In this document: in pieces, positions 8,849 to 24,202 of the stretch
Layout of the letters: each line of letters opens with the position of its first letter
How positions within the stretch are numbered: position 1 is the stretch's first letter
NCBI GenBank assembly: GCA_007135295.1
Contig: SLJD01000366.1
Coordinates: 1 to 26,712 of the forward strand
Source of the DNA: Phycisphaerales bacterium
GTDB taxonomy: Bacteria > Planctomycetota > Phycisphaerae > Phycisphaerales > SM1A02
Direction: 5' to 3'
Length of the DNA: 26,712 bases
Program-made: the position numbers and the translations under genes
The notes under the pieces: generated by a model
The model's input: the letters and a program-made list of their open reading frames with translations, nothing else
The model's database searches: none
What the model was told of the DNA's origin: nothing

Positions 8849-9009
8849 GCCCGTCAGACTGAGTCGGGCCTTGCCGAGATTCCGCGTCGTGTCCCCGCCG
8901 AGCGGCCGGGGGTGCCGGGCGATGGTGCGCTGCACCGCGCGGTTTTCGTATTGAACGGAGAGGGGCGGGGTCGCGGAGGTGGGGCCGTGGCAGGAACTCA
9001 TAGACCCGC

Positions 9010-9015
9010 ATTGTA
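9010..9015 (-). promoter_or_regulatory. Putative -10 (TACAAT) for lipA
   Basis: The minus strand reads TACAAT, then 8 nt, then an in-frame ATG at 9001. Confidence 0.45.
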
Positions 9016-9285
9016 GCCGACTGCGGCGTCTCAGAGGTGGCGCCGGGCGCCGGAAATCGCTGCCGGATCGACCGAGAGGCCGTCGAAAAATCAATTTGTT
9101 CCGGAAAATTCCGTGCCAGCATTCAACCCACCCCGAATAACCGGTCGATCTTGAACAGGCCGTCCAGGTCGGCGGCAGGATGTCCGTCTCATTGGACTGG
9201 CTGTATGTCCGGCAGCAGGTGACAACCGATTCGGTTTCGTGGATGATGTTCCCGGCCGTTGACGACGCCGGTGCATCTGCGAAGA

Positions 9286-9291
9286 TACACT
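9286..9291 (+). promoter_or_regulatory. Putative -10 (TACACT) for the exosortase/EPS operon
   Basis: TAnnnT hexamer about 90 nt upstream of the GTG start. A TTGACG lies at 9259-9264, but the 21-nt spacing is non-canonical. Confidence 0.3.
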
Positions 9292-9379
9292 GCCGCACAG
9301 CGCTGTTGAGGCAGTACTGGTTGGGCGGCGGTGTCTGACCTGATCTCAGGTGCGTGGCAACTGGACGAGGAGAGTTTGG

Positions 9380-10867
9380 GTGAGTCAGTTCAAGCAGGTA
9401 AGACAAGCCACCGTGGTGCGCAGCATCCTCGCGGTCGTCATGATCGCCGTCGCGTCGCAGATGACCGGCTGCGGCCTCCAGAGTTTCATGGATCCGTCCA
9501 AGACGGGTTACTTCAAGGATCAGCCGACGATGGTCCCGATCCTTGACCGCATCGACGTCATCGAGCAGGAAGAGACGCTCTTCCGCCAGACGAGCGAAGT
9601 CACGCGAGAGGACCTGCTGCCCAGCGACCTGACGTACCGGCTCGCTCCGGGCGACTTCGTCACCGTCGAGGTCTTCGAGCTCGAATTCGACAACCAGATG
9701 ACCCAGGCCATGCGGCGGATCGACGCGTCGGGCAACTTCCGACTGCCGGTCGTCGGCGATGTGCCTGCGGCCGGCAAGACGCTGCAGGAGTTCCAGGACG
9801 ACCTCGTCGAGCTCCTCGCTGAGGAAGTCCTCGCCTACCCGCAGGTCACCGTGCAACTCGAAGAGGGCGGGTACTTCCAGTACACCGTCTACGGCAACAC
9901 CCGCGGCCCGGGCGTGTACCAACTGCGCCGGCCGGACTTCCGCCTGCTGGAAGCGCTCGCGACCGCCGGCGGCGTGCCGCCCGACACGCAGACCATCTAT
10001 GTGATTCGGCAGGTGGCGCTTGATGATGAAGTCATCGCCCCGTTTTATCGTGACATGGAGGACCCGGATCGGCCGCGCGACCCTGATGAGCGGCGGCCGG
10101 TCGACATTGATGAACTGATCGATCAGCTTGACGAGGAGCCCCGACCCGGTGCGATGAGCCAAAGCGCCGGCCACGACGATCCGCCGATCGACATCGACGA
10201 CCTTCAGCCGGTCCGCGTAGCCGACGAACCGCCTGTCGATATCGAGGACATGCCCGCGCCGACCCGCCGTGAACGCGACAGCAACTTCGTCTATGACGAA
10301 GAGCGCGGCGAATGGGTCGAAGTCCGGCCCGGCACCGGCGAGGAAGTGGACGAGGACGAAGCCTACGTCGAGCGGATTATCGAGATCCCGTACGACCGGC
10401 TCGAACAGGGCGACAGCCGATACAACATTGTCATCCGCCCGAGCGACAAAATCTTCGTCGAGTTCCCGGAGATGGGCCTCGTGTACGTTGAGGGCGAGGT
10501 TGCCCGCCCGGGTGTGTACAGCCTCGCCCAGGAAGGCGGTCAGAAGCTCACCCTCAGCCGCCTCATCGCAGCGGTCGGCGGGCTCGGCCCGGTGGCGATT
10601 CCCGAGCGGGTGGACCTGACCCGGATGGTCGGCGAGAACCGCGAAGCGACGATCCGCGTGAATCTCGCCGCGATCCGGCAGCGGACCGAGCCGGACATCG
10701 TGCTCAAGCCCAACGATCACATCATTGTCGGCACCTCGTTCGCCGCAACGCCGCTGGCGGTCATTCGCAACGGCTTCCGCGTGAGTTACGGCTTCGGGTT
10801 CCTGCTTGACCGGAACTTCGGCAACGACGTCTTCGGCGCGCCGCCTACGCGTGTCCAGGGGCAGTGA
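9380..10867 (+). CDS. Polysaccharide export (OPX/Wza-like) lipoprotein with Poly_export and SLBB domains, 495 aa
   Basis: GAGGAG Shine-Dalgarno before GTG; signal peptide with lipobox MTGC; [32 protein letters not shown] and GEVARPGVY motifs. Confidence 0.9.
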
Positions 10868-11181: not shown

Positions 11182-12150
11182 TTGGTCGATCAAGAGCTGA
11201 ATATGTCCAGTGAGGCGGTGGAGATCAGCGACCAGGCCGAGTCGGTCCGCGTCAGCGATGCGGACAGGCAGCAGTTGCTGCTCGGCGGTCTGCTGGTCGG
11301 CGCGTGTTTTGTGTTCCTTTTCTGGAATTTTCTCCGCGCCCAATTCAACTTCGCCATCCATCAGCAGGCCGACTGGGGCCACACGCTGATCATTCCGTTT
11401 ATTACCGGCTATTTCGTCTATCTGAAGCGTGAGACGCTGCTGAAGGTGCCGTTCCGGACGAACTGGCTCGGACTCCTGCCGATCATCGTCGGGGCTGGCG
11501 CATACTTTTTCTTCTGGCTCGGTCCGGACGCCTTCATGCACCACAATCTGCAGGGGGCGGCGGTGGCGCTGACGCTGTTCGGCATCGTGCTGACGTTCTT
11601 CGGTACGCGGGCCACGGGGCACTTGCTCTTCCCGCTGGCGTATCTCGCCGTCTTCGGGCAGCGAATCTCCGACCGCCTCATGGGCCTGGTGACGAATGAA
11701 ATGCAGGACATCGCGGCCATCGGGTCGTATTACGTCCTCATCCTGCTCGGATTTACCGTTGAGAAACTGGGCAATGTGCTGGTCGTCGTCGATCAGGCCG
11801 GCGTTGAAAATCCGTTGAACATCGCCGAGGCGTGCTCGGGCATGCGGATGCTCATGGCGTTCCTGGCGCTGGGGGTGTTTATTGCATACACCGGCCTGAG
11901 CCGGTTGTGGCAGCAGGTGGCCCTCGTACTGCTCGCTGTGCCCACCGCTATTTTCGTGAATATCCTGAGGGTGGTGACGCTCGCTTGGCTGAGTCTGTAT
12001 GACACGGACTTTGCGGCCGGCGATTTTCACCATTTTATCGGGCTGGTCTGGCTTGTCCCGGCGCTGTTTATCTATCTCGGGCTGGTGTGGGTCTTGCGGA
12101 ACCTCGTCATCGAGCCGGATGCTCCGACAGCAGGGGGGACGCCATCATGA
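11182..12150 (+). CDS. Exosortase (EpsH/archaeosortase family transpeptidase), not fused to EpsI
   Basis: Multi-pass membrane protein with DWGHTLIIP, catalytic IAEACSG (Cys at 11833), NILR (Arg) and FHH (His). Start is TTG 11182 (GGAG upstream) or ATG 11203. Confidence 0.92.
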   Translation: MVDQELNMSSEAVEISDQAESVRVSDADRQQLLLGGLLVGACFVFLFWNFLRAQFNFAIHQQADWGHTLIIPFITGYFVYLKRETLLKVPFRTNWLGLLPIIVGAGAYFFFWLGPDAFMHHNLQGAAVALTLFGIVLTFFGTRATGHLLFPLAYLAVFGQRISDRLMGLVTNEMQDIAAIGSYYVLILLGFTVEKLGNVLVVVDQAGVENPLNIAEACSGMRMLMAFLALGVFIAYTGLSRLWQQVALVLLAVPTAIFVNILRVVTLAWLSLYDTDFAAGDFHHFIGLVWLVPALFIYLGLVWVLRNLVIEPDAPTAGGTPS

Positions 12151-12210: not shown

Positions 12211-13059
12211 ATGTTTGACAGCAAGGCCAAGTACGCGCTCGTGGCGGTGTGCCTGACGATGCTCGTCAGCGCGATCGGCTTTCAGTCCGTCATCGCGGCT
12301 TTGAATATCTATCTGGCCAAGGAGCCGGTCGAGCTGCGCCAGTCGCTTGGAACGATTCCGCGGCAACTCGGGGAATGGCGGGCCCGGGGAGAGGACGTCG
12401 ACCTTGACGCCGCCATGACCGAGGAACTCGGCACCGAGGATTATCTGACCCGGACATATGTCCGTGAGCGCGACGGCGAAGAGGAAGCTATCATGCTTCA
12501 CCTCGCCTATTACACCGGGCTGATCGACGCCGTCCCCCATGTTCCGGACCGCTGCTTCGTCGCGCACGGCTGGTCGATTTCCGGGCTGCCGCAGAATCTG
12601 GACCTGCCGGTCGATACATCCGGCTGGCGCGACGATGAAGAAAACATGAGCAATGACGGCACGCCGTACCCCGTCATGGACCGGATTGATCCGATCACTC
12701 GCCGGCCGAGCGAAGTGCGTATGCCGATCGGCGATCTGCGGCTGCGCACTTCGGAATTCCGCAATGAACAGAACCCGAACAGTCGGCTGTTCGCCGGCTA
12801 CTTCTTCGTGGCCAACGGCCGGACGACGCCTCAGCCCGAGGCGATCCGGGTCATGGCGTTCAACCGGTCCGAGAAGTACGCCTATTACCTGAAAGTGCAG
12901 GTATCAATGCCGGTCACCGAAGATGTATCTGTGGACGAGTTTCTTGAGCGGTCCGGGGAGTTTATGGACCTGATGCTTCCGGAGATCATGCGATGTCTGC
13001 CCGACTGGGCCGAAGTCGAGCAGGAGGCGGCGCAACAGGCCGAGGTGCAGTCAAGCTGA
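12211..13059 (+). CDS. epsI: Exosortase-associated EpsI family protein
   Basis: N-terminal TM/signal, L.TIPRQLGEW, HVPDRCFVAHGW (the EpsI HxPxxC...GW motif), and position directly after the exosortase. Confidence 0.8.
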   Translation: MFDSKAKYALVAVCLTMLVSAIGFQSVIAALNIYLAKEPVELRQSLGTIPRQLGEWRARGEDVDLDAAMTEELGTEDYLTRTYVRERDGEEEAIMLHLAYYTGLIDAVPHVPDRCFVAHGWSISGLPQNLDLPVDTSGWRDDEENMSNDGTPYPVMDRIDPITRRPSEVRMPIGDLRLRTSEFRNEQNPNSRLFAGYFFVANGRTTPQPEAIRVMAFNRSEKYAYYLKVQVSMPVTEDVSVDEFLERSGEFMDLMLPEIMRCLPDWAEVEQEAAQQAEVQSS

Positions 13060-13072
13060 CGAGAGGGAATCG

Positions 13073-16000
13073 ATGGCGACTCGAATCAATACGCGATTCA
13101 TACTGATACTGGCTTGTGCCATCATGCTCGCGGTCGCGACTGTGGGCGGCCTGCTGTTCCTGCAGATCCGCGCCAATCCCGAACGCAACGTCCAGGCCGG
13201 CGACCACCTCATGGAAGAGGGCGACTACGAGCGCGCGCTCAACATGTACGGCCGGGCGGTTCACCGCGACCCGGCGAACGAGGAATACCGCGAGAAGATG
13301 AAGGAAGCGCTTCGTCACATCCGTCCGACGACGACCGAGTCGGCGGAGCGGTATTACCAGGACAGGCTCGCCCTTCTCAACTATGAAGCCACTCATGATC
13401 GCACGAATCCCGAAGCGCACCTCCGACTGATCCGGGAGTTCTACGACTTCGCCCGGTTCTCCAACAGTTCGAGCATCTGGCGGCAGTTGGCAGATTACGC
13501 CGACAACATGTGGCACCGCCTGCCGGACGACGAGCCGCAGCGCGTTTACGCCCGACTCTACCGGGGCCTGGCGATGTACGAACGCGCCGATGCCAACACG
13601 AGTGATGAAAACGACGCCGCCGAGGAAGATCTCGTCGAATTTCTCGATGCCGTGCCCGATAGCGATTTGGGCTGGTCGCGGCTGATCATGGGCCGCCTGG
13701 CACGGGCGGAGAATTCCCTGGCCCGCGCTGATGCGCGCACCGCGGCCCGCTTTATCGGATTGGCCGACGAAGCGATTGAACAGGGGGCAGAAAACGTCGA
13801 CGACGGCCCGGCGCTCGCCGTTGCCAAGGCCCGCCGGCTGATCTTTCAGCGGAGCCGTGAAGAGCAACCGGTGGCCGATGAGCAATGGGTCGAGGCGGCG
13901 GACCGCATCGCCGTCCGCATCCGCGGAGTTGATGATGGATTTCTCGTCGGCGACGCCGTCGATGTTCTGCGCATAATCGACCGCTCCGAGGGTCTGCAAC
14001 GCGCGGTGGCGATTCTTGATGACTACCTTGAGGATCACCCTGAATCGCTGATGCACGAGTTCAGTGCCGCCCGGCTGGAGTACGCGATGGGCGAGTTCGA
14101 CCCCGCGCGGGAACGCGCCGAGTCACTTGTCCAACGCGACCCGCTGCCTGTCGGTCTGTTCTCACGCGTTCAGCATCACCTGCGGGGTCGGGCGGCGTCG
14201 CTGCTCGTCGACATCGAGTTCCGCCGGTGGGAACTCGCCGACCTCGATGAACGTGACGGTATTGCTGAGCAGTTGCAGGAAGACCGTGACCTGCTCGCCC
14301 AGCACGCCACGCAGCGTGAAGGTGACCCGATCGTCATCCGGGCGGATGGCAAGATCGCCGTCGCGGAGGGACGCTTTGGCGATGCGGCGAGTCACTTCGA
14401 GCGCCTGATTGAGCAGGGGCTGGAAAGCGACATGGACGTGCTTCGCCTCAGCGCGATCTCGCTTGAGCGTGAAGGGCAACTCGGCCTTGCCCGCCGCCGT
14501 ATGGGGCAGGCCTTCCAGCAGAACCCGGGCAACCAGTGGCTCGCGTATCAGTACGCTCGACTTTCCTTCCAGTTGCAGGATTTCGAGGACGCCCAGAGGG
14601 CGATCAGCGTCGTCATGGACGCCAACCCTCACGAGGACGCTGTGGCGCTGCAGCAGGCGATCGAGCAGGCGATGACTGGCGAGGAGGCCGAACCGATCTC
14701 CCTGCCCGGTGTGCTTCGGCAGGCGTACGAGCGTTTTCAGTCCGGCGACGTCAGCGGCGCCCGGGCGATGCTCATGCAGGCGCGGGAGGATTCGCCCGAC
14801 AACGTTGAAGTGGTGGTGGCCCTCGCGCAGCTCTCCATGATGACAGGAGACCTTGAAGCGTCGAGCCGGTTTGTCGAAGAAGGCCTGCAACTCGACTCGG
14901 ACAACGAAACATTGCAGCGGTTCAGCCGGTGGATCGACGCCGACGACCCCGTCGAGCGGATCGAACTGGTTACGGAGTCGCAGTTCGACGATCCGGCTGA
15001 GCAGGACGTCATGACGCTCGTGAATCTCGAGCAGTCCGCCGACCGCTGGCAGCGGCAGTTGCGGGCCGGGCTTGCACCGGACGGGCAGAACCCTGATGAA
15101 CTGCAGGATCAGATTGACCGCGCCCGTCAGCGAGCGGAGTCGATTCTGGCCGAACTTGATGAGGATTCTGCGAATCACCCGCGGCTGATCGAATTCCAGT
15201 TCGAGCGTGCGCTCGAACAGGGCGACTGGTCGGAAGCGCAGTCGCTCGTCGACCGGGCCGAGCAGGCTGACGCCGACGGCGCCGGCGGACTCGTGTACCA
15301 AGGCCGGTTCCAGATGCAGCGCGGTCAGTACGTCGACGCGGTACGCACGTTCATCAGCCTGACCGAGCGGCGCGGCTTTGCCGCCCAGTCATGGCGATGG
15401 CTGGGGATGGCGTACCACGCGGTCGGCAACTACGCCGACGCGGAGCGCGCGTTCGATCGTGCGTTTGAAATCAATCCCAACGATCTGCTGACATTGCAGG
15501 AATACGGCAACATGCTGCTCGGGGCCGGCGACCAGCAGCGGGCGCTCGACCTCATCAGGCGTGCCCGCGACCTCGCGCCGCACAACCCCACCGTCCGGGA
15601 GACGTGGCTGCAGCTTGAAGCCCAGGCCGGTGACCGGTCCCGTGTGCTGCGCGAGCGACGTGAGCTGTTCGAGGCGAACCCAGACAATCGGGAGAACGCG
15701 CTGCGGCTGGCGGACCTCCTGATCTCCACCGAGCCATCGCGACGGCTCGTGCTCGATGACGACGGCTCGCCCCGCTACGACGGTCGTCGGTGGGAGCAGA
15801 TGTCCAGGTCGCGCCGCCAGCAACTGCTCGAAGAGACCGCTCGGCAATGGATCGATGAAGGCAAGCAGATCGTCAACCAGCTTGTTGACGCCGGCTACGA
15901 TGATCTGGACACGCTGAAAATGAAGGCCCGGCTGCTGCGACGCGAAGGCGAGGGCCGGGAAGCGGTCGGTCTGCTTGAAGACGCTGTCGAAAACCGCGAG

Positions 16001-17812
16001 GGTGTTGCCCGCGTGGAAGCGATGATCGCGCTCGCTGAGTACTACGTCGACGCGAATCAGTTCAACCAGGCGGTGCAGATCCTTCAGGATGCCCGGCAGG
16101 ACCCCGCCGACGAGCAGCGACTGGCCGACCGCAGGCTTGGTGACCTCCTCATGTCGCACGGCCGGCACGCGCAGGCGGCGATGTTCTACAACAGCGTGCT
16201 TGAAGCCGATGACGATCGCGCCGTCCGGTTGCGGATGACCGAATCGCTCATTCGCTCGGGGCAGTTCGACGAAGCCCGCTCGAATCTCGATCACCTCATC
16301 GATCAGGCCGGCGAGGACATGGAGGTCGTGCTGCTCGAAGCGTCACTCGCCGGCCGTCGGGCGGCATACGCCATGGCGGAAGGCGAAGACCGGCTCGCTG
16401 CCCAGCGGTGGTCCGATCAGCGAGAATTGCTCGAACGGGCGGTCGAAATGAATCCGTCGAGCCCCACCCCGCACATTCAGATCGCGCTGAGCTACTACGA
16501 GGAATATCAGCGAACGGGGCGGCGGCGCCTGATCGATGAAGCTGAACTTTCGCTCGGGCGGGCGGAATCGCTCAATCCTGACCAGGTGCAGAGCCGCATG
16601 ATCCGCGCGGAGCTGCGCGCCGGCCGCGGGGATCACAGCGGGGCGGCCCGTGAACTCGGCCGGGTGCTTGAGCGCCGGCCGCACCACGAGTCAGCCCGGC
16701 GTCGACTGGTCGACATCCGTGTCGAGCTTGGCGAGTTCGACCAGGCCATCGAGGTCGTCGAAGACGCGATCGATCGCCAGCCGTTCCAGTCGCGATGGCA
16801 TGATCGGCTCGGCGATCTGCTGCTGCAGGTCGGGCGGTATGACGACGCGGTGGCGGCCTTCCAGCGGTCGTACGAACTGCAGCCAAGCGAGCCGATGCTC
16901 GTGAAGATGGCCGAGTCGATGCTCCGCCGCCCGGATCCGGACTACCAGCGTGCCCACGGTCTGCTCGGCCAGGTCGTCGGCGGCGAGCAGGTCAATCCCG
17001 GGCTGCGGGTGGTCTTCGCGGAAGCAAGTTACGGGCTTGGGCGGTCCGACGACGCGATCGACCAGCTTGAGCGCGCCTACCGGCAGTTCCACCAGTTCAT
17101 CGAGGAAGGCCGGGCTGGGATGCAGGCAATGGCCGCCTGGTATGCAGCGCTCGGCCGCATGTTCGTCCCTGACGAGACCGAACAGGCCGAGGAGATCGTC
17201 TTCGAACTCGCCGACGGCGAGCCGAACGCGTTCGAACTCGACCAGCTTGCCGAACTCTGGGAGAACACGCCGGACGGCGGGGGTCGAGCGGCGGAACTGC
17301 AGGAAATGGCGGTGGAGCGGCTCGAGACAGTTGATGAGTCCATTCGCCCCCGCATCATTCACCGCCAGGGCGTCTCGCTGTACCGCCGGGGCGAGTTCAG
17401 CGCCGCCATGCAGGCGTTCCGCCGACAGACGGAATTGAACCCGGCGGACCACAGCGCGCTGAACAACCTCGCCTATGTGCTCGCCAAGCATCTCGATCAG
17501 CCGGATGAGGCCCTCTCGCACGCCCGCCGCGCTGTCGACATGCAGCCGGAGAACGCGAGTTATCAGGACACCCTTGGCATGATCCTGATGCTGATGGGAC
17601 GGTACGATGAGGCCTACAGCACGCTGCGGCGTGCGATCGAGCTTGATGAGCAGTCGGCTGCGGCCCATCTTCACATGGCGCAGCTTCAACTGGAACGGGC
17701 GGATCCGGATCTGGCCCGTACGCACCTGGAACGGGCGGAAGAACTGGATCCGGACGATGAGGTGCGAGAGGAACTTGAGCGGACGCGTGAGCGAATCAAC
17801 CGCGTGCAGTAA
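13073..17812 (+). CDS. Very large (1579 aa) membrane-anchored TPR-repeat protein, PrsT-like
   Basis: N-terminal signal anchor and many TPR-pattern helices (e.g. AERAFDRAFEINPND). The C-terminal ALNNLAYVL...A..A....PENASYQDTLG resembles PEP-CTERM-system PrsT. GAGGG Shine-Dalgarno. Confidence 0.85.
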   Translation: MATRINTRFILILACAIMLAVATVGGLLFLQIRANPERNVQAGDHLMEEGDYERALNMYGRAVHRDPANEEYREKMKEALRHIRPTTTESAERYYQDRLALLNYEATHDRTNPEAHLRLIREFYDFARFSNSSSIWRQLADYADNMWHRLPDDEPQRVYARLYRGLAMYERADANTSDENDAAEEDLVEFLDAVPDSDLGWSRLIMGRLARAENSLARADARTAARFIGLADEAIEQGAENVDDGPALAVAKARRLIFQRSREEQPVADEQWVEAADRIAVRIRGVDDGFLVGDAVDVLRIIDRSEGLQRAVAILDDYLEDHPESLMHEFSAARLEYAMGEFDPARERAESLVQRDPLPVGLFSRVQHHLRGRAASLLVDIEFRRWELADLDERDGIAEQLQEDRDLLAQHATQREGDPIVIRADGKIAVAEGRFGDAASHFERLIEQGLESDMDVLRLSAISLEREGQLGLARRRMGQAFQQNPGNQWLAYQYARLSFQLQDFEDAQRAISVVMDANPHEDAVALQQAIEQAMTGEEAEPISLPGVLRQAYERFQSGDVSGARAMLMQAREDSPDNVEVVVALAQLSMMTGDLEASSRFVEEGLQLDSDNETLQRFSRWIDADDPVERIELVTESQFDDPAEQDVMTLVNLEQSADRWQRQLRAGLAPDGQNPDELQDQIDRARQRAESILAELDEDSANHPRLIEFQFERALEQGDWSEAQSLVDRAEQADADGAGGLVYQGRFQMQRGQYVDAVRTFISLTERRGFAAQSWRWLGMAYHAVGNYADAERAFDRAFEINPNDLLTLQEYGNMLLGAGDQQRALDLIRRARDLAPHNPTVRETWLQLEAQAGDRSRVLRERRELFEANPDNRENALRLADLLISTEPSRRLVLDDDGSPRYDGRRWEQMSRSRRQQLLEETARQWIDEGKQIVNQLVDAGYDDLDTLKMKARLLRREGEGREAVGLLEDAVENREGVARVEAMIALAEYYVDANQFNQAVQILQDARQDPADEQRLADRRLGDLLMSHGRHAQAAMFYNSVLEADDDRAVRLRMTESLIRSGQFDEARSNLDHLIDQAGEDMEVVLLEASLAGRRAAYAMAEGEDRLAAQRWSDQRELLERAVEMNPSSPTPHIQIALSYYEEYQRTGRRRLIDEAELSLGRAESLNPDQVQSRMIRAELRAGRGDHSGAARELGRVLERRPHHESARRRLVDIRVELGEFDQAIEVVEDAIDRQPFQSRWHDRLGDLLLQVGRYDDAVAAFQRSYELQPSEPMLVKMAESMLRRPDPDYQRAHGLLGQVVGGEQVNPGLRVVFAEASYGLGRSDDAIDQLERAYRQFHQFIEEGRAGMQAMAAWYAALGRMFVPDETEQAEEIVFELADGEPNAFELDQLAELWENTPDGGGRAAELQEMAVERLETVDESIRPRIIHRQGVSLYRRGEFSAAMQAFRRQTELNPADHSALNNLAYVLAKHLDQPDEALSHARRAVDMQPENASYQDTLGMILMLMGRYDEAYSTLRRAIELDEQSAAAHLHMAQLQLERADPDLARTHLERAEELDPDDEVREELERTRERINRVQ

Positions 17813-17862
17813 GAACCACTGAGCCGTCCATGCCGGACGGCCTGAGACAACAGGACAGAGTT

Positions 17863-20079
17863 ATGAGCAGCGTCACGACACAGAGCAGTCCGGCCCGGGG
17901 CGGCGGCACCGCCCGACCGCGCGGGGGTGGCGCGACCGCGGCACCGTCAGCCCGATCGATCGATCCATTTCGCGTGCTCCGCCGCCACGTCTGGCTTCTC
18001 ATCGCGTCGATCTTCATCGGGGCGGGGATCGGAGCGGCGGCGTGGTACGGGCTCGACCGGGCGTATCCGCTGTACTCCGGCGAGGTGCGCTTCGAGTTGC
18101 AGCCGGGCCTCAAGCAGTCCCGGGAGGTCGGCACGCAGGATTTTGGTCGCGAAGATGAGGTCGTCCGCCTCGGGCAGACCGAGATCAGCATGCTGCTCGG
18201 TCGTGATGTCCTGATGGAGGCCGTCCGCACGCCGCAGGTCGAGAACACCGAGTGGTTGCAGAGCTACACGCTGCCGGATGGCGTGTCGATCGACTACGAA
18301 AGTGCGGTCGATGACCTGCGAGACACGCTCAACGCGGGGCTGGTCCGTAATTCAAACCTGTTTCGCGTGGCATGGTCGACGCATGAGGCGGAGGATGTGC
18401 CCGTCGTGCTCAACCGGGTCGCTAACGCATACATCAACAAGCGGCGACAGATGGACGAAAGCCGCCATCGGGCGAACATCGAATTGTTCAACGAGGAGAT
18501 GAACCGGACGGCCGACGAAATCGACCAGTTGTCTGAGGAGATCGAGGATTTCATCCGCGAGCGCGGCATTACGGCGCTCGATGACCCCCGGTTCCACCAG
18601 ACGTATCTGGCGCTGAACAGCACCGTGCACCGAATCCAGGAAGCGACGGTCAACCTCAACGTCGCCCGAACGGAGTACGATCGCATCCAGCGCAAGCTGG
18701 AAGGCACGATCCGGCCGACCGCGGATGATCGCATGCGGGCGGAGATGGAGCCGGTGATCGCCCGGCTCGACCAGCAGGTCAACGAAAGCAAGGCCGCCCT
18801 GTTCTCCCTGCGCGAGCGGCGGATTGACCGCAACAACGACGGCCGGATCCGTGATCTCGAAGCCCGCATCCGCGGCTTTGAGGAGCAGCGTGAAGCGAAG
18901 ATTCAGGAACTGATCAACCGCAATCTTGAGTCCGATCTCAAGATGACCGCCGATCAGATTCACCGCTTGCAACGCATGCTTGAAGAGCTGGAAACGGATT
19001 ACGAGGAGAAGGATGAGTCCCTGCGCGAGCTGGCGGCGAGCTATTCGGAGTTCAAGGAGCTCGAGCGGCAACGCACGCGGCTCGAGGAGCTGCGCAGCAC
19101 GGACATGGCCCTGATCCGCGAACTGCAGATGCTCCGCCTGCGCGATGACGCCGCCCGCGTGCGCATCTGGCAGAACGCGCAGGTGCCGCGCCAGAAGTCG
19201 TTCCCGCAGCTCAAGCTCATGCTGCCGCTCGGCGTGATTCTCACGCTCGGGCTGACGACCGGCCTCGTGTTCCTCCGCGAGATGACGGACCAGCGCGTCA
19301 AGACGGTCAGCGACCTCGGCCTGATTCCCGGCGCTCGCGTTGTGGGCGTGATTCCCGACCGCGACGAGGATCCGACCGGCATCGACAACGTGGAGATGGT
19401 CGTCCGCGATCAGCCGTCCAGCGTCCTCGCCGAGTCGTATCGGCAGGCGTGCGCTCCGCTGATGAAGGTGCTGGACATGTCACAGCACCAGTCGCTGCTC
19501 GTGCTGGGCAGTCTGCCCGGATCCGGGACGACGACGACGGTTTCGAACATCGCTGCGACCTACGCCGCCGCGGGCCGTCGTGTCCTGGCGGTCGATGCCA
19601 ACTTCCGCCGGCCGGGTCTGGCCAAGGCGCTGGGTATTGAAAATCACGGCCCGGGCCTGGGCGATCTTCTGCACGAGGCGACGACGATTGATGAAGCGAT
19701 CATCGACGCCGGCTCGGGCGTGGATCTGCTGTCCTGCGGCACGGTGCCGCACCGCGTCTTCGAGCGGCTGAACACACCGCGGTTCGATCAACTCATGGCC
19801 CAGTTGCGGGAACGGTACGACCTGATCGTGCTGGACGCGCCGCCGGCGGTCGTGGCCGGTGAGGCGATCGCGCTGGCGAACAAGGCCGATGCGACACTGC
19901 TGCTCGTCCCGGCCAATGAAGCGCAGCGCGGCCTCGTGGCGCGACTTATCAACCAGTTGGCCGACACGCGTTCGGAACTCATCGGCATCATGCTCAACCG
20001 GGCGCGCGGCACGACCGGCGGATACTTCAAGAAGAACTTCGCCACCATCGCGTCCTATTCGGCGTCGTCCGAGCGATGA
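17863..20079 (+). CDS. Wzc/GumC-like polysaccharide co-polymerase with degenerate BY-kinase domain, 738 aa
   Basis: TM - coiled-coil periplasmic domain - TM, then AESYRQ, Walker A-like GSLPGSGTTT, A'-like VDANFRRP and Walker B LIVLDAPP. AGGA precedes the ATG at 17863. Confidence 0.9.
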   Translation: MSSVTTQSSPARGGGTARPRGGGATAAPSARSIDPFRVLRRHVWLLIASIFIGAGIGAAAWYGLDRAYPLYSGEVRFELQPGLKQSREVGTQDFGREDEVVRLGQTEISMLLGRDVLMEAVRTPQVENTEWLQSYTLPDGVSIDYESAVDDLRDTLNAGLVRNSNLFRVAWSTHEAEDVPVVLNRVANAYINKRRQMDESRHRANIELFNEEMNRTADEIDQLSEEIEDFIRERGITALDDPRFHQTYLALNSTVHRIQEATVNLNVARTEYDRIQRKLEGTIRPTADDRMRAEMEPVIARLDQQVNESKAALFSLRERRIDRNNDGRIRDLEARIRGFEEQREAKIQELINRNLESDLKMTADQIHRLQRMLEELETDYEEKDESLRELAASYSEFKELERQRTRLEELRSTDMALIRELQMLRLRDDAARVRIWQNAQVPRQKSFPQLKLMLPLGVILTLGLTTGLVFLREMTDQRVKTVSDLGLIPGARVVGVIPDRDEDPTGIDNVEMVVRDQPSSVLAESYRQACAPLMKVLDMSQHQSLLVLGSLPGSGTTTTVSNIAATYAAAGRRVLAVDANFRRPGLAKALGIENHGPGLGDLLHEATTIDEAIIDAGSGVDLLSCGTVPHRVFERLNTPRFDQLMAQLRERYDLIVLDAPPAVVAGEAIALANKADATLLLVPANEAQRGLVARLINQLADTRSELIGIMLNRARGTTGGYFKKNFATIASYSASSER

Positions 20080-20252
20080 TTGCGTCGGCCGGAGAACCGA
20101 TCCGGCGGGGCGTGCAGCCGACACGTCCCGCCGGCCCTCATCCGCGGCCGAACGGCGGCCCGGGAGCGCGACTCGATCGCCGGGGCAGGGAATGCTGACG
20201 TTTCGGCCGCGAGCCGCCCGCCGGCTCCGGCACAGGTCAAGGAACTGCTGTC

Positions 20253-21254
20253 ATGTCCGCCTCTGCCCAACCGCAACGATGCCTGATCACCGGCGGAGCC
20301 GGCTTCATTGGTTCGCACCTGGTCGAGCATCTCGTCGACGGCGGTCATCACGTGGTTGTGATCGACAATTACTCGACCGGCCGGGCGGAGAACCTGGCCA
20401 GCGTTCCGGCCGAGCAGGTTGAGATCCTGCAGGGGGACGTCAGCGATGTGCTTGCCCAACTCGACCCGACGCAGTTCGATGTGATCTACCACCTCGCTGC
20501 GTCAGTCGGGGTGCGCCTCGTGATTGAGCGGCCGATCGAAACGATCGAGAACAACGTCAGCCAGACAGCGGCGGTTCTTGAGTTCGCGGCCGGCGCGGCG
20601 GTTCCGATTCTCGTTGCATCGACGTCGGAGGTCTATGGCAAATCGACCAAGACACCGTTCGCTGAAGACGATGACGTGGTGTACGGGCCGACGATCTACA
20701 GCCGGTGGTCGTACGCGTGCTCCAAGGCGATCGATGAGTATCTCGCGCTCGCCCACGCCGGCCGTCACGGGCTGCCCGCGGTGGTCGCGAGGTTCTTTAA
20801 CACCGTCGGGCCGCGACAGGTCGGCCGGTACGGCATGGTGATTCCTCGATTCGTGGAGGCGGCGCTGTCGGGGACGTCGCTCCAGGTCCATGGTGACGGC
20901 AAACAGACGCGGTGCTTCTGCGATGTGCGGGACGTGGTTGAGATTCTGCCTCGGCTGCTGGCAAACCCCGCCTGTCACGGCCGGGTGTTCAACGTCGGCA
21001 GCGACGAGCCGATTGAGATCGGCGAACTTGCCGCAATGGTCTGCCGGACATTGAATGCCGACTGCCCGATCGAGTATGTCACCTACGATGAAGCGTTCGG
21101 GCAGGGGTTCGATGATCTGCGGCACCGGCGGCCGGATCTGACGCGTCTTCGCGAGGCAGTCGAGTGGTCGCCGCGATACCCCTTGGAACAGACGATTCGC
21201 GATCTGGCCGATCTGTATGAGCGGGGACAGACACCGCTGGAGTCGACCGGATGA
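20253..21254 (+). CDS. NAD-dependent nucleotide-sugar epimerase/dehydratase (extended SDR; UDP-glucuronate decarboxylase/4-epimerase-like)
   Basis: TGGAGFIGSHL, STSEVYGK, YACSK (YxxxK), RFFNTVGPRQ and QTRCFC. Substrate cannot be determined from the sequence. Confidence 0.9.
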   Translation: MSASAQPQRCLITGGAGFIGSHLVEHLVDGGHHVVVIDNYSTGRAENLASVPAEQVEILQGDVSDVLAQLDPTQFDVIYHLAASVGVRLVIERPIETIENNVSQTAAVLEFAAGAAVPILVASTSEVYGKSTKTPFAEDDDVVYGPTIYSRWSYACSKAIDEYLALAHAGRHGLPAVVARFFNTVGPRQVGRYGMVIPRFVEAALSGTSLQVHGDGKQTRCFCDVRDVVEILPRLLANPACHGRVFNVGSDEPIEIGELAAMVCRTLNADCPIEYVTYDEAFGQGFDDLRHRRPDLTRLREAVEWSPRYPLEQTIRDLADLYERGQTPLESTG

Positions 21255-22702
21255 ACTGGCTGGGCGCCCACATCATGACGCCGGCAGCGACGGCGGGGTC
21301 GGCGCTTCGTCCGTCGGACGACGACGGGTTCGGGGCGATGGCGGTCAACGCGCTCGACCTGGTCAACAGTTACTCGGTGATTTTTCTGATCGCGTTCGTG
21401 GTGACGCTGCTGAGCACGCCAGTCATCCGCCGCGTCGCATTATGGGGCGGGGTGGTCGATCGGCCGGATTCGATCCGCAAGCTGCATCGCCTGCCGGTGG
21501 CGTACATGGGCGGGGTTGCGGTGTTCATCGGTATTATTGCGGCGGTGGCGGCGAGTTACGTGTACGTCGACGGGATCACCGCGCAATTCGATCCCGTGCC
21601 GATCGCCATCGTGATCGGGATGGTCGCGATCGCGTTCACGGGCCTGGCCGACGACCTGTGGGGATGGGATCCGCGACTGAAGATCATGGGCCAGCTCATC
21701 GCGGCGGCTGCGCTGGCAGTGAGCAAGATCGGCGTGAACGTTGCGGCGGGGGTCCTCTGGCCGGTGGCGGACTTCTTCGGTCTGGAAAGTCTCGTCTTCA
21801 CGATTCCCGTGCTCGAACTGCCTTTCGATCTTGTGTACTGGACCGGGACGGCCCTGATCGCGATCTTCATTCTCGGCGGGTGCAATGCGGCGAATCTCAT
21901 TGATGGACTGGACGGGCTGCTCTCCGGGGTGGTGGGAATCGTCGCTCTCGGGCTGCTGGTGATCTCCGTGTTCATGGCGCTGCAGGCGTGGCCGCTGATC
22001 GACGGCCGGGAGCCTGTCCTCGCCGGGGCACGGCTGGTCCTTGCGTTCGCCCTGTTCGGGGCGGTTCTTGGATTCCTGCCGCACAACTTCAACCCGGCGA
22101 CGATTTTTCTGGGGGATTGTGGCAGTCTGCTGCTCGGGTACCTGTGCGTCGTAATCATCCTGATGTTCGGTGAGTACGGGCAAACGCACCTCGTATTCGC
22201 CGGGCTGATCGTCTTCGCCCTTCCGATCATGGACACGGTTCTCGCGATCATCCGGCGCAAACTCAGCGGTCAGCCGATGTCCGCCGCGGATGATCAGCAC
22301 ATTCACCACCAGTTGCGAAGCGCGTTCGGCGGGGGCGTGAAAAAGGCCGTCTTCGCCCTGTACGGGATCAGCGGGCTGTTCGCCCTCGTCGGTGTGCTGC
22401 TCGCGGCGCTGGTCATGTTCACCGAGCTTCGCGTGCGGGCGATTTATGCGGTGGCACTGGTGCTGTTTGGTTTCATTGGCGTCATCGCGGTGAAGGCGGC
22501 CCGGCGTCGGCATGAGGTCGAACAGCTTGAACACGAAACGGCGGCCGCTGAAACGGCCCCACCGGCACCACAACCGCAGGGGGCCGGCGAAGGTCCGCCG
22601 ACGGCCGCTCCATCGCTGGCGTCATCCGCCGCCGCGACCCGGACCGGTGAATCCGGCGTGGCCAGCCTGCCCGCCGAAGGCGCCTCCCGGCCGACCGCGT
22701 GA
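21251..22702 (+). CDS. wecA: WecA/TagO-type undecaprenyl-phosphate HexNAc-1-phosphate transferase (MraY family)
   Basis: GLADD, NAANLIDGLDGL, FLGDCGS and the WecA-type HIHH motif; many TM helices; ATGA overlap with the epimerase. The start could be slightly downstream. Confidence 0.85.
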   Translation: MNWLGAHIMTPAATAGSALRPSDDDGFGAMAVNALDLVNSYSVIFLIAFVVTLLSTPVIRRVALWGGVVDRPDSIRKLHRLPVAYMGGVAVFIGIIAAVAASYVYVDGITAQFDPVPIAIVIGMVAIAFTGLADDLWGWDPRLKIMGQLIAAAALAVSKIGVNVAAGVLWPVADFFGLESLVFTIPVLELPFDLVYWTGTALIAIFILGGCNAANLIDGLDGLLSGVVGIVALGLLVISVFMALQAWPLIDGREPVLAGARLVLAFALFGAVLGFLPHNFNPATIFLGDCGSLLLGYLCVVIILMFGEYGQTHLVFAGLIVFALPIMDTVLAIIRRKLSGQPMSAADDQHIHHQLRSAFGGGVKKAVFALYGISGLFALVGVLLAALVMFTELRVRAIYAVALVLFGFIGVIAVKAARRRHEVEQLEHETAAAETAPPAPQPQGAGEGPPTAAPSLASSAAATRTGESGVASLPAEGASRPTA

Positions 22703-22736
22703 CGCCCCGGCGCTGCACATGAGCGGGCGCGGCGGC

Positions 22737-22742
22737 TACACT
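22737..22742 (+). promoter_or_regulatory. Putative -10 (TACACT) for a separate LMW-PTP/FN3K transcript
   Basis: TACACT, then 8 nt, then ATG at 22751. No Shine-Dalgarno sequence. Confidence 0.45.
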
Positions 22743-22750
22743 TGCCGCGT

Positions 22751-23245
22751 ATGAGCGACTCGAATCGTCACCGTCTGCTGTTCATCTGCCTGGGCAACAT
22801 CTGCCGAAGCCCGCTGGCTGAAGGCATCTTTCTGCACAAGGCCAACGCACGCGGCGTCGCTGAGCAGTTCACCATTGACTCGGCCGGGACCGGCGGGTGG
22901 CATGTCGGCGATCCGCCCGACCCCCGCGCCCGCGAAGTCGCCGAGCGGCATGGCGTCAGACTCGTCAGTCGCGGCCGGCAGATCGAACCGGGCGACACTG
23001 ACCGATTCGACCTGCTGCTCTGCATGGACCGGGACAACTACCGGAAGGTGGAGCGGCTCGGCGCCCGGCCGGATCAGATTCACCTCATGCTCGAATTTCT
23101 TCCCGAAGATTCGCCTCACGAGGTGCCCGACCCGTACTACGGCGGCGACGACGGGTTCGACCATGTCTTTGATCTGCTCGACCGGTCGTGCGAGAACCTG
23201 CTTGACCAACTGACGGCCCGGCCTGAGCCGTCATCGAGGCAGTAA
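22751..23245 (+). CDS. Low-molecular-weight protein tyrosine phosphatase family, 164 aa
   Basis: FICLGNICRSP (CX5R), DSAGT and DPYYG. Confidence 0.95.
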   Translation: MSDSNRHRLLFICLGNICRSPLAEGIFLHKANARGVAEQFTIDSAGTGGWHVGDPPDPRAREVAERHGVRLVSRGRQIEPGDTDRFDLLLCMDRDNYRKVERLGARPDQIHLMLEFLPEDSPHEVPDPYYGGDDGFDHVFDLLDRSCENLLDQLTARPEPSSRQ

Positions 23246-23304
23246 ACGAGTGCCGCCGCGGCGCAATTCACCTCAGGAACGAGCAGCCGGAGTCGACGGA
23301 CGGA

Positions 23305-24192
23305 ATGACACGTCAGGCGATTGAGCACGCCATCGAAGCCGCCGGGATTAAGGCCGCCGTCACGCGGCTGAGTGACCTGTCCGGCGGGTGCATTCATCAG
23401 GTTAGCCGGGTGGACCTTGACGACGGCCGCACGCTCGTCGCGAAACTGACCAATGCGTCACAGCGCGGGCTGTTCGAGGAAGAGGCCGTCGGCCTGACCG
23501 CGCTGGCGGAGACGAACACGGTCCTTGTGCCGTACGCGCTGCACACCGGCGAGTACGACGGCCGGGCGGTCCTGCTCATGACGCACGTCGACCCCGGGCC
23601 GCGCGACGACGGGGCGTATCGCCGTCTCGGCGAGGAGCTGGCGGCGATGCATCGGACGGACGTCGGCCAGCGGTACGGTTTCGCGCATGACAACCATCTC
23701 GGCACGACGCCCCAGCCGAACACCTGGCACGACGACTGGGTCGAGTTCAACCGCAACTGCCGGCTCGGCCATCAGTTGAATCTCGCCAAAGCCGGGCGGG
23801 CCATGTCCAGCGATGAACTGAAGACGGTCGAACGCGTGATCGACCGCCTCGATCAGATCCTGCCGCACCGCCCGTTTCCCTCGCTGCTGCACGGCGACCT
23901 CTGGGCGGGGAACGCGATGCCCGGCGTGGACGAGGATGGTTCGCCGCGCGTCGCCGTCATTGATCCGGCGTGTTCGATCGGCGACGGCTGGGCCGACATC
24001 GCGATGATGCAGTTGTTTGGCGGGTTTCCGGCGTCATGTTTCGAGGCGTACAGCGCGCAGATCCACGATCATAACGAGGTGGATCGCCGGATCGCTGCGT
24101 ACCAGCTGTATCACGTGCTCAACCACGTCAACCTGTTTGGCCGGGGATACGCCCGGCAGGCCGTCGCGCTGGCGCAGCAACTGGCGGCATGA
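23305..24192 (+). CDS. Fructosamine/ketosamine-3-kinase family protein
   Basis: LSGGCIH, F.EEA.GL.AL, YGFAHDNHLGTTPQPN.W, SLLHGDLWAGN, IDPA...D...DIAM..LFGGF and YQLYHVLNH.NLFG..Y. Confidence 0.92.
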   Translation: MTRQAIEHAIEAAGIKAAVTRLSDLSGGCIHQVSRVDLDDGRTLVAKLTNASQRGLFEEEAVGLTALAETNTVLVPYALHTGEYDGRAVLLMTHVDPGPRDDGAYRRLGEELAAMHRTDVGQRYGFAHDNHLGTTPQPNTWHDDWVEFNRNCRLGHQLNLAKAGRAMSSDELKTVERVIDRLDQILPHRPFPSLLHGDLWAGNAMPGVDEDGSPRVAVIDPACSIGDGWADIAMMQLFGGFPASCFEAYSAQIHDHNEVDRRIAAYQLYHVLNHVNLFGRGYARQAVALAQQLAA

Positions 24193-24202
24193 CCAATCGC
24201 GC

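What the first reader, a model, noticed from the sequence alone, without database searches (positions are those of the whole stretch)
19507..20079. Wzc-like protein appears to be a pseudokinase
Seen: the Walker A reads GSLPGSG-T-TTT, with ACG at 19528-19530 where BY-kinases have the essential Lys (GK[T/S]). Walker A' is DANFRRP instead of DxDLRxP, and the tail (GGYFKKNFATIASYSASSER) has only two Tyr rather than a tyrosine cluster. Established: Lys mutants of Wzc are kinase-dead and phosphorylation cycling drives Wzc assembly. Three concordant deviations argue against a single sequencing error. Inference: a co-polymerase that works without autophosphorylation, or with an unlinked kinase partner.
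Basis: partly seen in the sequence, partly recalled or inferred. Interest (0 to 1): 0.7.

Follow-up and report, generated by a model that had tools for sequence, protein, structure and literature searches.

The report
Lysine-less Wzc-like co-polymerase (pseudokinase)
A polysaccharide-export membrane protein of an uncultured soda/salt-lake Phycisphaerae bacterium carries a tyrosine-kinase-shaped domain that lacks its catalytic lysine in this whole lineage, so it is probably a non-catalytic scaffold, a kind of protein already described in other bacteria.

Summary
ORF 17830-20079 (749 aa) is a Wzc-like PCP-2a. Its cytoplasmic domain has the BY-kinase fold, but it reads G-S-G-T(ACG 19528-30)-T-T where kinases have GK[ST]. 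It has D-A-N-F-R-R-P instead of DxDxR, and a tail with two Tyr.

This is not a sequencing error. Contigs from two metagenome runs of different years carry the same codon. None of 266 relatives and none of 36 genome loci has Lys or Arg at that site.

The protein belongs to a conserved Phycisphaerae operon: OPX, exosortase, EpsI, ~1600-aa TPR protein, then this PCP. Orthologues in the same operon in other orders of the class keep the Lys (GDGKTT). They already have DANFRRP and a half-reduced Tyr tail, so the kinase features were lost stepwise.

The rest of the site stays invariant: P563, G566, T568, D589 and D669. So does a new tail motif, GGY-x-[KR][KR]-N-x6-Y.

Best reading: a fused BY pseudokinase that scaffolds the co-polymerase ring and may still bind Mg-nucleotide.

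Such proteins are already known (PslE 2026, EcpK 2025, HfsB, GumC). This scan has noted about 70 similar cases on other DNA. The finding is a new member of a known kind.

An adjacent LMW-PTP leaves trans-phosphorylation of the two Tyr open.

The parts
9350..10867 (+). OPX (Wza-like) polysaccharide export protein, first gene of the conserved module
   Evidence: Pfam Poly_export 63 bits plus SLBB. TIGR03028 EpsE and TIGR03027 match below cut-off. Present upstream of the exosortase in related loci.
11182..12150 (+). Exosortase (EpsH/Xrt family)
   Evidence: TIGR02602 105.2 bits (cut-off 105.55). TIGR04178 signature 64 bits. XrtA and XrtW match below cut-off.
12211..13059 (+). EpsI-like exosortase-associated protein (DUF3485)
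   Evidence: PF11984 57 bits. EpsI models match weakly.
13073..17812 (+). 1579-aa TPR protein, PrsT-like at its C-terminus
   Evidence: Many TPR families. TIGR02917 PrsT 232 bits, below its cut-off of 312. Conserved in position in all related loci.
17830..20079 (+). Wzc-like PCP-2a co-polymerase (749 aa, P0001) with a Lys-less BY-kinase-like cytoplasmic domain (about residues 510-749)
   Evidence: TIGR01007 104.2 bits (cut-off 108.05), TIGR03007 63 bits, weak GNVR. AF2 pLDDT 90.8. The Foldseek top 50 are all BY-kinase domains, TMq 0.73-0.84.
19432..19452 (+). O-motif remnant E535-S-Y-R538-Q-A-C541 (canonical EX2RX2R)
   Evidence: E and the first R are invariant in 120 relatives. The third R is lost in this subclade but present (ESFRQLR) in the wider Lys-less clade.
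19507..19539 (+). Degenerate Walker A: G-S-L-P-G-S-G-T-T-T-T, with T567 (19528-19530, ACG) at the catalytic Lys position
   Evidence: Column statistics. Contig check.
19594..19614 (+). Walker A' variant D589-A-N591-F-R-R-P (second Asp replaced by Asn)
   Evidence: N is present in 263 of 266 relatives and D589 in 256 of 266.
19822..19848 (+). Intact Walker B (L-I-V-L-D669-A-P-P-A)
   Evidence: D669 is present in 266 of 266 relatives.
20017..20076 (+). C-terminal tail G730-G-Y732-F-K-K-N736-x6-Y743, a conserved motif that replaces the Tyr cluster
   Evidence: G731, Y732 and Y743 are invariant and N736 is present in 265 of 266. Predicted helical at low confidence, pLDDT about 54. It aligns with the start of the Y-cluster of canonical Planctomycetota kinases (R-G-[GDN]-Y-Y-Y-Y).
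20253..21254 (+). NAD-dependent sugar epimerase/dehydratase
   Evidence: PF16363 and PF01370. Syntenic in most related loci.
21251..22702 (+). GT4 (WecA/MraY-type) polyprenyl-phosphate sugar-phosphate transferase
   Evidence: PF00953 102 bits. TIGR02380 81 bits, below cut-off.
22742..23245 (+). Low-molecular-weight phosphotyrosine phosphatase with intact C-X5-R-S and D-P-Y motifs; its link to the PCP is uncertain
   Evidence: PF01451 139 bits. Motifs read. Adjacent to GT4 in 14 of 27 related loci with at least 1 kb of downstream sequence.
23305..24192 (+). Fructosamine-3-kinase family protein, the likely functional partner of the LMW-PTP rather than of the PCP
   Evidence: PF03881 247 bits. 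Follows the PTP in 10 of the 14 PTP-positive loci.

Best explanation
The gene encodes the inner-membrane co-polymerase (PCP-2a) of an exosortase-linked polysaccharide export module (OPX, exosortase, EpsI, giant TPR protein, PCP).

Its cytoplasmic domain descends from an active BY-kinase. It no longer autophosphorylates because it lacks three things: the Walker A Lys, the second Walker A' Asp, and the Tyr cluster that is the substrate.

The domain is kept as a structural module. It most likely still forms the cytoplasmic ring that organises the co-polymerase oligomer. It probably does so using the retained Mg/nucleotide-site residues (T568, D589, D669) and the retained part of the oligomerisation motif (E535, R538). 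The new invariant tail GGY-x-[KR][KR]-N-x6-Y would act as an amphipathic docking helix rather than as a phospho-acceptor array.

Shown: the sequence features, their fixation, the fold, the operon, and the stepwise evolutionary series.

Inferred: loss of kinase activity, ring formation, residual nucleotide binding, and the role of the tail.
For: 1. Fold. The sequence matches VpsO, CapB, BceF, Etk and Wzc at E 1e-13 to 1e-29. The AF2 model has pLDDT 90.8. The Foldseek top 50 are all BY-kinase domains.

2. The catalytic Lys is absent in 266 of 266 relatives. That site varies more than the domain average (entropy 1.9 against 1.66 bits). P563, G566, N573, R593, D669, G731, Y732 and Y743 are invariant, and T568, D589, N591, N723 and N736 nearly so.

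3. Published mutant data: Wzc K540M, ExoP K589I and VpsO K551A lose ATPase or kinase activity. K540M still closes on ATP-Mg and oligomerises, and the T541-D642 pair coordinates Mg (review PMC9800525). PDB titles show Lys mutants with bound MgADP in octamers.

4. Synteny. The OPX-exosortase-EpsI-TPR-PCP order is found in all 25 related loci that reach far enough upstream. It is also found in same-order and same-class genomes.

5. Orthologues in the same operon in other orders keep GDGKTT but already have DANFRRP and a GGYF...5-Tyr tail. Lys-less and intermediate forms make one clade (SH-aLRT 97) next to canonical Planctomycetota kinases with GK[ST]T, DxDxR and YYYY tails.

6. Five complete same-order genomes hold no canonical Y-cluster BY-kinase.

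7. Precedent. PslE is a fused PCP-2 without Lys or Y-cluster. It lacks kinase activity and works as a stable octamer (PMC13434223). EcpK and HfsB are scaffold pseudokinases (PMC12004946).
Against: No biochemical data exist for this family.

Two tail Tyr are invariant across the whole clade. That is also what a specific phospho-site would look like.

An intact LMW-PTP lies three genes downstream, and in 14 of 27 related loci. PslE's lack of activity was linked to the absence of such a phosphatase.

The third Arg of the oligomerisation motif is missing in this protein, so ring formation by the canonical interface is not assured.

The invariance of the Mg-site residues could reflect fold stability rather than ligand binding.
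Confidence: 0.68

Rival explanations
1. The domain is kinase-dead but is still a phospho-regulated substrate. Y732 and/or Y743 are phosphorylated in trans by another kinase, for example the Lys-bearing PCP-like paralogue of the second exosortase locus. The adjacent LMW-PTP dephosphorylates them, so assembly cycling persists with a split kinase and substrate.
For: Two Tyr are invariant in 266 of 266 relatives. The intact LMW-PTP at 22742-23245 is conserved next to the operon in 14 of 27 loci, 4 of them without FN3K. The genome and four complete relatives encode a paralogue with an intact GK[ST] Walker A but no Tyr tail (or one Tyr), which is a complementary pattern.
Against: The paralogue sits in its own exosortase-EpsI locus and lacks the EX2RX2R motif.

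The PTP is absent next to the operon in more distant Lys-less genomes and in the Lys-retaining orthologous loci. It therefore joined the locus after the kinase features had been lost. It is usually paired with an FN3K homologue. From my own knowledge (Gemayel et al. 2007, not re-read here), that pairing is a known deglycation pair.

The invariant Tyr lie on the hydrophobic face of a predicted amphipathic helix together with an invariant Asn. This fits packing rather than phosphorylation (my reading of the motif).
Confidence: 0.17
2. The domain is still an active ATPase or kinase that uses a non-canonical basic residue in place of the Walker Lys, comparable to WNK kinases. Candidates are the invariant R593/R594 or the conserved [KR]734 of a neighbouring subunit's tail.
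For: The P-loop glycines, the Mg-binding Thr, Walker B Asp and first Walker A' Asp stay invariant over an order-deep divergence. A conserved basic pair follows the invariant Tyr in the tail.
Against: R-[RK] at that Walker A' position is also present in canonical kinases that still need the Lys. The Lys site tolerates T, A, S, G, V, N and C. The putative compensating tail residue tolerates both K and R. The second Walker A' Asp and the substrate cluster are lost as well. Every tested Lys mutant of this family is inactive.
Confidence: 0.07
3. The lysine-less codon is an assembly or sequencing error, or the gene is a decaying pseudogene.
For: None beyond the single-base distance AAG to ACG and the (ACG)4 repeat at the site.
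Against: The same codon stands in contigs of two runs of different years. The trait is fixed in 266 relatives and 36 genome loci. The reading frame is intact at 749 aa, which is of normal length, and the columns are strongly conserved.
Confidence: 0.01

Closest known systems
PslE of Pseudomonas aeruginosa (Psl pathway; cryo-EM PslD-PslE complex, Nat Commun 2026, PMC13434223)
   Same: A fused PCP-2 with a cytoplasmic tyrosine-kinase-like domain. It lacks the catalytic Walker Lys and the C-terminal Tyr cluster, and it works with an OPX partner. It was shown to lack kinase activity and to function as a stable octamer.
   Different: It is not detectably close in sequence. It is absent from the best 60 PDB matches of the family profile, whereas active kinases score E 1e-34 to 1e-42, so the loss was independent. 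PAO1 has no Wzb-like phosphatase, but here an LMW-PTP is adjacent. The present family keeps Walker B, the Mg-binding Thr and a strictly conserved two-Tyr tail motif, and it sits in an exosortase operon.
EcpK/EpsV (Myxococcus xanthus) and HfsB/HfsA (Caulobacter): BY pseudokinase plus kinase-less PCP-2 (PMC12004946)
   Same: A BY-kinase fold without catalytic residues or a Tyr-rich tail. The proposed role is as a scaffold for the co-polymerase. The C-terminal helix carries Lys/Arg.
   Different: Those are stand-alone proteins in which all three Walker motifs are gone. Here the domain is fused (PCP-2a architecture) and only Lys, one Asp and the Tyr cluster are changed.
Fused PCP-2 / BY-pseudokinase variants listed by Cuthbertson et al. 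2009 (SMc01795, Mlr8439, VV1_2305), and GumC as a 'pseudo-BY-kinase'
   Same: A single polypeptide that joins the transmembrane/periplasmic part to a degenerate kinase-like domain (as cited and in the review).
   Different: I could not fetch those sequences, so their relatedness was not tested. None is reported from Planctomycetota or from exosortase loci.
Canonical PCP-2a BY-kinases: E. coli Wzc/Etk, V. cholerae VpsO, Burkholderia BceF; S. aureus CapB
   Same: The same fold, 24-29% identity, TMq 0.73-0.84. The same membrane topology and the same OPX partner. Walker B and part of the O-motif are kept.
   Different: Walker A Lys, the second Walker A' Asp and the Tyr cluster are missing. TIGR01007 scores 104.2 bits, below its cut-off of 108.05.

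Membership tests
BY-kinase catalytic domain (TIGR01007 / BYK) | P-loop (MinD/SIMIBI-like) BY-kinase fold | tested here: met
   phmmer against PDB gives VpsO 8.7e-29 and CapB 5.5e-26. AF2 pLDDT is 90.8. The Foldseek top 50 are all BY-kinases.
BY-kinase catalytic domain (TIGR01007 / BYK) | Walker A G-x-x-G-x-G-K-[ST] with catalytic Lys | tested here: not met
   T567 (ACG 19528-30) aligns with the Lys. None of 266 relatives has K or R there.
BY-kinase catalytic domain (TIGR01007 / BYK) | Walker A' hhhhDxDxR | tested here: not met
   The motif is D589-A-N591-F-R. N is present in 263 of 266 relatives.
BY-kinase catalytic domain (TIGR01007 / BYK) | Walker B hhhhDxxP | tested here: met
   L-I-V-L-D669-A-P-P. 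D is present in 266 of 266 relatives.
BY-kinase catalytic domain (TIGR01007 / BYK) | C-terminal Tyr-rich cluster (autophosphorylation substrate) | tested here: not met
   The tail has 2 Tyr (Y732, Y743). Relatives have 2-3. Canonical Planctomycetota homologues have runs such as GDYYYYRQYY.
BY-kinase catalytic domain (TIGR01007 / BYK) | Oligomerisation motif EX2RX2R | tested here: inconclusive
   The motif reads E535-x2-R538-x2-C541. E and the first R are invariant. The third R is lost in this subclade and kept in the wider Lys-less clade.
BY-kinase catalytic domain (TIGR01007 / BYK) | Curated NCBIfam score cut-off | tested here: not met
   104.2 bits against a cut-off of 108.05 for the protein. 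The six-frame genome scan is borderline, at 107.8 or 108.1.
BY-kinase catalytic domain (TIGR01007 / BYK) | Tyr autophosphorylation and ATPase activity | not testable with these tools
   Needs purified protein.
PCP-2a polysaccharide co-polymerase | Two TM helices flanking a long helical periplasmic domain, fused to a cytoplasmic BYK-type domain, with an OPX partner | tested here: met
   Hydrophobic stretches at about residues 55-75 and 462-483, read. TIGR03007 chain-length determinant scores 63 bits over residues 155-510, and GNVR is weak. The OPX gene lies at 9350-10867. TM helices were judged by eye, not by a predictor.
Fused BY-pseudokinase PCP-2 (PslE-like kind) | BYK fold lacking the catalytic Lys and the Y-cluster, yet conserved under selection | tested here: met
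   Mean column identity is 55% over 121 sequences with 17 invariant columns.
Fused BY-pseudokinase PCP-2 (PslE-like kind) | No kinase activity; function independent of phosphorylation cycling | not testable with these tools
   Inferred from motifs and from published Lys-mutant data.
Fused BY-pseudokinase PCP-2 (PslE-like kind) | No cognate Wzb-type phosphatase | tested here: inconclusive
   An LMW-PTP is adjacent here and in 14 of 27 loci. It is mostly paired with FN3K. It is absent from the more distant loci and from the Lys-retaining orthologous loci.
XrtA/PEP-CTERM-type exosortase EPS locus | Exosortase + EpsI + PrsT-like TPR + OPX + chain-length determinant/kinase in one locus | tested here: met
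   Searches give domain-level matches, all below the XrtA-system equivalog cut-offs, so this is an exosortase locus of an unassigned subtype. Synteny is conserved.

The most novel reading that the evidence does not exclude
The Lys-less domain is not inert. It is a nucleotide- or Mg-gated latch. It would still bind ATP-Mg through the invariant P-loop backbone, T568, D589 and D669, and use that binding to close and form the ring, without turning ATP over. The invariant GGY...Y tail helix would dock in the neighbour's crippled site. That helix would be switched by trans-phosphorylation from the Lys-bearing paralogue and by dephosphorylation from the operon's LMW-PTP. This would be a kinase/substrate division of labour between two exosortase-linked co-polymerases.
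Probability: 0.12. Interest if true: 0.6.

Novelty: new member of a known kind. Interest (0 to 1): 0.3.

Why it matters
It adds a large, previously undescribed lineage to the recently recognised class of phosphorylation-independent PCP-2 co-polymerases. The lineage holds hundreds of 50%-identity clusters (339 representatives at E<1e-30 include it) and is annotated in databases as 'tyrosine autokinase' or 'AAA ATPase'.

Its specific value is the natural evolutionary series inside one conserved operon. The series runs from canonical kinase, to Lys-retaining DxN forms with a shrinking Tyr cluster, to Lys-less forms with a fixed two-Tyr tail. This gives matched proteins for testing what a BY-kinase domain still does once catalysis is gone.

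It also warns against annotating these genes as kinases, and against annotating the neighbouring LMW-PTP as Wzb by position alone.

Tried and rejected
- Homodimer prediction of the domain (complex prediction, alignment A1, 2 copies) gave no verdict: score 0.00, controls not run. The service was unreachable six times before that. It carries no weight either way.
I replaced it with a phylum scan using the profile.
- Full-length MAFFT --auto on 120 proteins timed out. I used the C-terminal 260-275 residues instead.
- The promoter/terminator scan of 19900-24400 found nothing useful for deciding whether the PTP is co-transcribed with the operon.
- A literature search for the FN3K/LMW-PTP gene pairing did not retrieve the primary paper. 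That point rests on my memory of Gemayel et al. 2007.
- No RNA holder was listed among the sequencing runs, so nothing can be said about expression.
- Searches for Phycisphaera + exosortase and for Planctomycetes + Wzc found no paper on this family in the library.
- My first tree labelling misfiled two canonical rows (L070, L073) as Lys-less, because their P-loop lacks the Pro my regex required. I corrected this by reading the sequences.
- I dropped an early note of 'perfect co-variation' of the three traits after finding the intermediates and the Cys/DxD subclade.
Full report
**Observation**

The + strand ORF 17830-20079 encodes a 749-aa protein, P0001. Counting from the ATG, codon 560 starts at 19507. 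The stretch reads G-S-L-P-G-S-G-T-T-T-T, and T567 is ACG at 19528-19530, the first of four ACG codons.

HMMER alignments to solved BY-kinases put T567 exactly on the Walker A Lys of VpsO (PGEGKTT) and CapB (PGAGKST). Walker A' is V-D589-A-N591-F-R-R-P, and Walker B is intact (L-I-V-L-D669-A-P-P). The tail, GGYFKKNFATIASYSASSER, holds two Tyr (Y732, Y743).

**Not an error, not a pseudogene**

Contigs of two public metagenome runs cover the codon without a difference. One run is a soda lake from 2019 (record covering 19406-19838). The other is a salt lake from 2012 (record covering 19344-19544). One of them may be the window's source.

The 120 closest protein clusters (52-67% identical in the domain) all read G-[T/S/G/A]-[TS]-T. 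An exhaustive HMMER search of 1.84 billion representatives gave 339 hits at E<1e-30. None of the 146 usable rows among the best 150 (38-69% identity) has Lys there.

Over 266 sequences the site is T131/A69/S37/G15/V8/N3. Its entropy is 1.9 bits, above the domain mean of 1.66. All 36 related genome loci that hold the region are Lys-less as well. The frame is intact and of normal length for the family.

**What the domain is**

NCBIfam's BY-kinase model TIGR01007 scores 104.2 bits, just under its cut-off of 108.05. Wzc, Etk, EpsG and the XrtA-associated kinase models match far below their cut-offs.

An AlphaFold2 model of residues 510-749, built with a 121-row alignment, has mean pLDDT 90.8. Only the last ~20 residues are uncertain, predicted as a helix at pLDDT about 54. 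Foldseek's best 50 PDB matches are all BY-kinase catalytic domains (VpsO, CapAB, Etk, Wzc, BceF) with TMq 0.73-0.84.

The N-terminal 500 residues have two hydrophobic segments around a long coiled-coil region. They match the XrtA-system chain-length determinant (TIGR03007, 63 bits). The protein is a PCP-2a co-polymerase by architecture.

**Context**

The gene lies in a co-directional module:
- OPX/Wza-like protein, 9350-10867
- exosortase, 11182-12150
- EpsI/DUF3485, 12211-13059
- 1579-aa TPR protein with a PrsT-like end, 13073-17812
- the PCP
- a sugar epimerase/dehydratase
- a WecA-type GT4 transferase

In 39 related loci from Phycisphaerae/Planctomycetota MAGs, the order exosortase-EpsI-TPR-PCP-epimerase-GT4 recurs. 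All 25 loci that reach far enough upstream have the exosortase. Complete or near-complete genomes of the same order, and one of the same class, show the same OPX-exosortase-EpsI-TPR-PCP core.

**How the loss arose**

I scanned 300 genomes of the phylum with a profile of the Lys-less family. All ten same-order genomes have the Lys-less type at 234-299 bits. The top-scoring hits outside the class that I read (163-183 bits) are canonical, with GK[ST]T, DxDxR[RK]P and tails such as GDYYYYRQYY.

Five genomes of other orders of the same class carry orthologues in the same operon that are intermediate. They have GDGKTT (Lys kept), DANFRRP (Asp already Asn), and a tail KGGYFREYYRSYQEYQ with five Tyr. 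Operon context was checked in three of them: the full upstream module appears in two, and the third reaches the contig end after the TPR gene.

In a maximum-likelihood tree, Lys-less and intermediate rows form one clade (SH-aLRT 97) beside the canonical kinases. The own-order Lys-less rows form a clade with support 100. A single origin of Lys loss is not rejected (p-AU 0.51), so there were one or two losses. The trait columns were not removed from these trees.

One marine subclade has Cys at the Lys site but keeps DxD. The three deviations are therefore strongly but not strictly coupled, and they accumulated stepwise in a machine that kept working.

**What is kept**

- P563, G566, N573, R593, D669, G731, Y732 and Y743 are invariant.
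- T568 is T or S in all sequences.
- D589 is present in 256, N591 in 263, N723 in 264 and N736 in 265 of 266.
- The two residues after Y-[FLM] are K or R.

T568 and D669 correspond to the Wzc T541-D642 pair that coordinates Mg in the closed, ring-competent state. Wzc K540M has no ATPase activity and gives no EPS, yet it still closes on ATP-Mg and oligomerises (review PMC9800525). Several solved octamers are Lys mutants with MgADP bound (titles).

This makes residual Mg/nucleotide binding plausible but unproven. By contrast, EcpK has lost all Walker motifs.

The tail motif starts where canonical relatives start their Tyr cluster (R-G-[GDN]-Y-Y-Y). On a helical wheel, Y732, F733, N736, F737, M740 and Y743 fall on one face. 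This is my own reading. The residue-level invariance suggests packing against a protein surface.

**Kinase partner and phosphatase**

The 74%-complete genome has one other BY-kinase-like protein, on contig C349. It sits behind a second exosortase-EpsI pair. It has GDGKTS, DCDLGGRS and IIIDTGP, but no EX2RX2R motif and a single Tyr in its tail. Four complete same-order genomes have orthologues with EGKST or DGKTS and no tail Tyr. None of the five complete genomes has a canonical Y-cluster kinase.

An intact LMW-PTP lies at 22742-23245, directly after the GT4 gene. It has the CLGNICRS and DPYY motifs and scores 139 bits on PF01451. A fructosamine-3-kinase homologue follows it.

The PTP occupies this place in 14 of 27 related loci with at least 1 kb of downstream sequence. 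Ten of those have FN3K and four do not. It is not near the operon in the more distant Lys-less genomes, nor in the Lys-retaining orthologous loci. It therefore joined the locus after the kinase features had been lost.

It does not exclude a role on Y732 or Y743.

**Comparison with what is known**

Lys-less BY-kinase-like domains are established:
- PslE is a fused PCP-2 without the catalytic Lys or the Y-cluster. It lacks kinase activity and works as a cross-linked octamer (PMC13434223).
- EcpK/EpsV and HfsB/HfsA are stand-alone pseudokinase plus PCP pairs. Fused variants were listed by Cuthbertson et al. 2009 (PMC12004946).
- The review suggests that GumC could be classed as a 'pseudo-BY-kinase'.

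The present family is far closer in sequence to active kinases (profile E 1e-34 to 1e-42). PslE does not appear among the best 60 PDB matches. This is an independent and comparatively shallow loss.

This scan has about 70 earlier notes of the same kind on other genomes. No paper in the searched library describes the Phycisphaerae family or links it to exosortase loci.

**Verdict**

The most likely mechanism is a catalytically silent ring or scaffold domain that may still bind Mg-nucleotide, with a conserved docking tail (confidence about 0.68).

The main rival is trans-phosphorylation of the two invariant Tyr with the neighbouring LMW-PTP (about 0.17). A cryptic kinase is unlikely (about 0.07), and error or pseudogene is excluded.

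It is a new member of a known kind. The stepwise series within one operon is its most useful aspect.

Noticed in passing
G000:C349 (L050:4500-6800), with L050:2898-4522 upstream: The genome has a second exosortase(EpsH)-EpsI locus, preceded by a WecG glycosyltransferase, a flippase fragment and a hexapeptide acyltransferase. It carries its own PCP-2a-like protein with intact Walker A (GDGKTS), DCDLGGRS and DTGP. That protein has no EX2RX2R motif and only one Tyr in its tail. Orthologues in four complete relatives have no tail Tyr at all. It looks ATPase-competent but has no substrate cluster.
   Followed up: partly
window 22742-24192: An intact LMW-PTP (C-X5-R-S, DPY) is followed 59 nt later by a fructosamine-3-kinase homologue. 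The pair sits downstream of the EPS operon in 10 related loci. The PTP sits there alone in 4 more, all from one marine subclade. Neither gene is present there in the Lys-retaining orthologous loci.
   Followed up: partly
L030-L034 (marine TMED24-like Phycisphaera MAGs), match at about 10001-10675: In this subclade the Walker A reads P-D-T-G-C-T-G, with Cys at the Lys site. Walker A' keeps both Asp (D-G-D-F-R-R-P). This is the reverse combination to the Lys-retaining DxN orthologues. In the four of these loci that reach downstream of GT4, an LMW-PTP follows it without FN3K.
   Followed up: no
L105-L109 and L122-L124 (same-class genomes G222, G254, G299, G206, G284): These are orthologues in the same OPX-exosortase-EpsI-TPR-PCP operon (context checked in G222, G284 and G299). 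They have GDGKTT plus DANFRRP plus a tail KGGYFREYYRSYQEYQ. They are natural intermediates between an active kinase and the Lys-less form.
   Followed up: partly
window 7889-10720 (- strand): This 943-aa ORF is lipoyl synthase only in its C-terminal third (about 7889-8820). The remainder is an open shadow frame opposite the real OPX gene at 9350-10867. It is a trap for ORF callers in this GC-rich DNA.
   Followed up: yes
G000:C165 (L003:1167-1907): This 246-aa protein ends with a P-G-P motif, a hydrophobic stretch and RRRR. That is a PEP-CTERM-like sorting signal, so the protein is a candidate exosortase substrate.
   Followed up: no
window 19528-19539: Four tandem ACG codons encode T567-T570 in the degenerate P-loop. 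Relatives usually have T-T-T-[VA], so the fourth Thr is specific to this genome.
   Followed up: no
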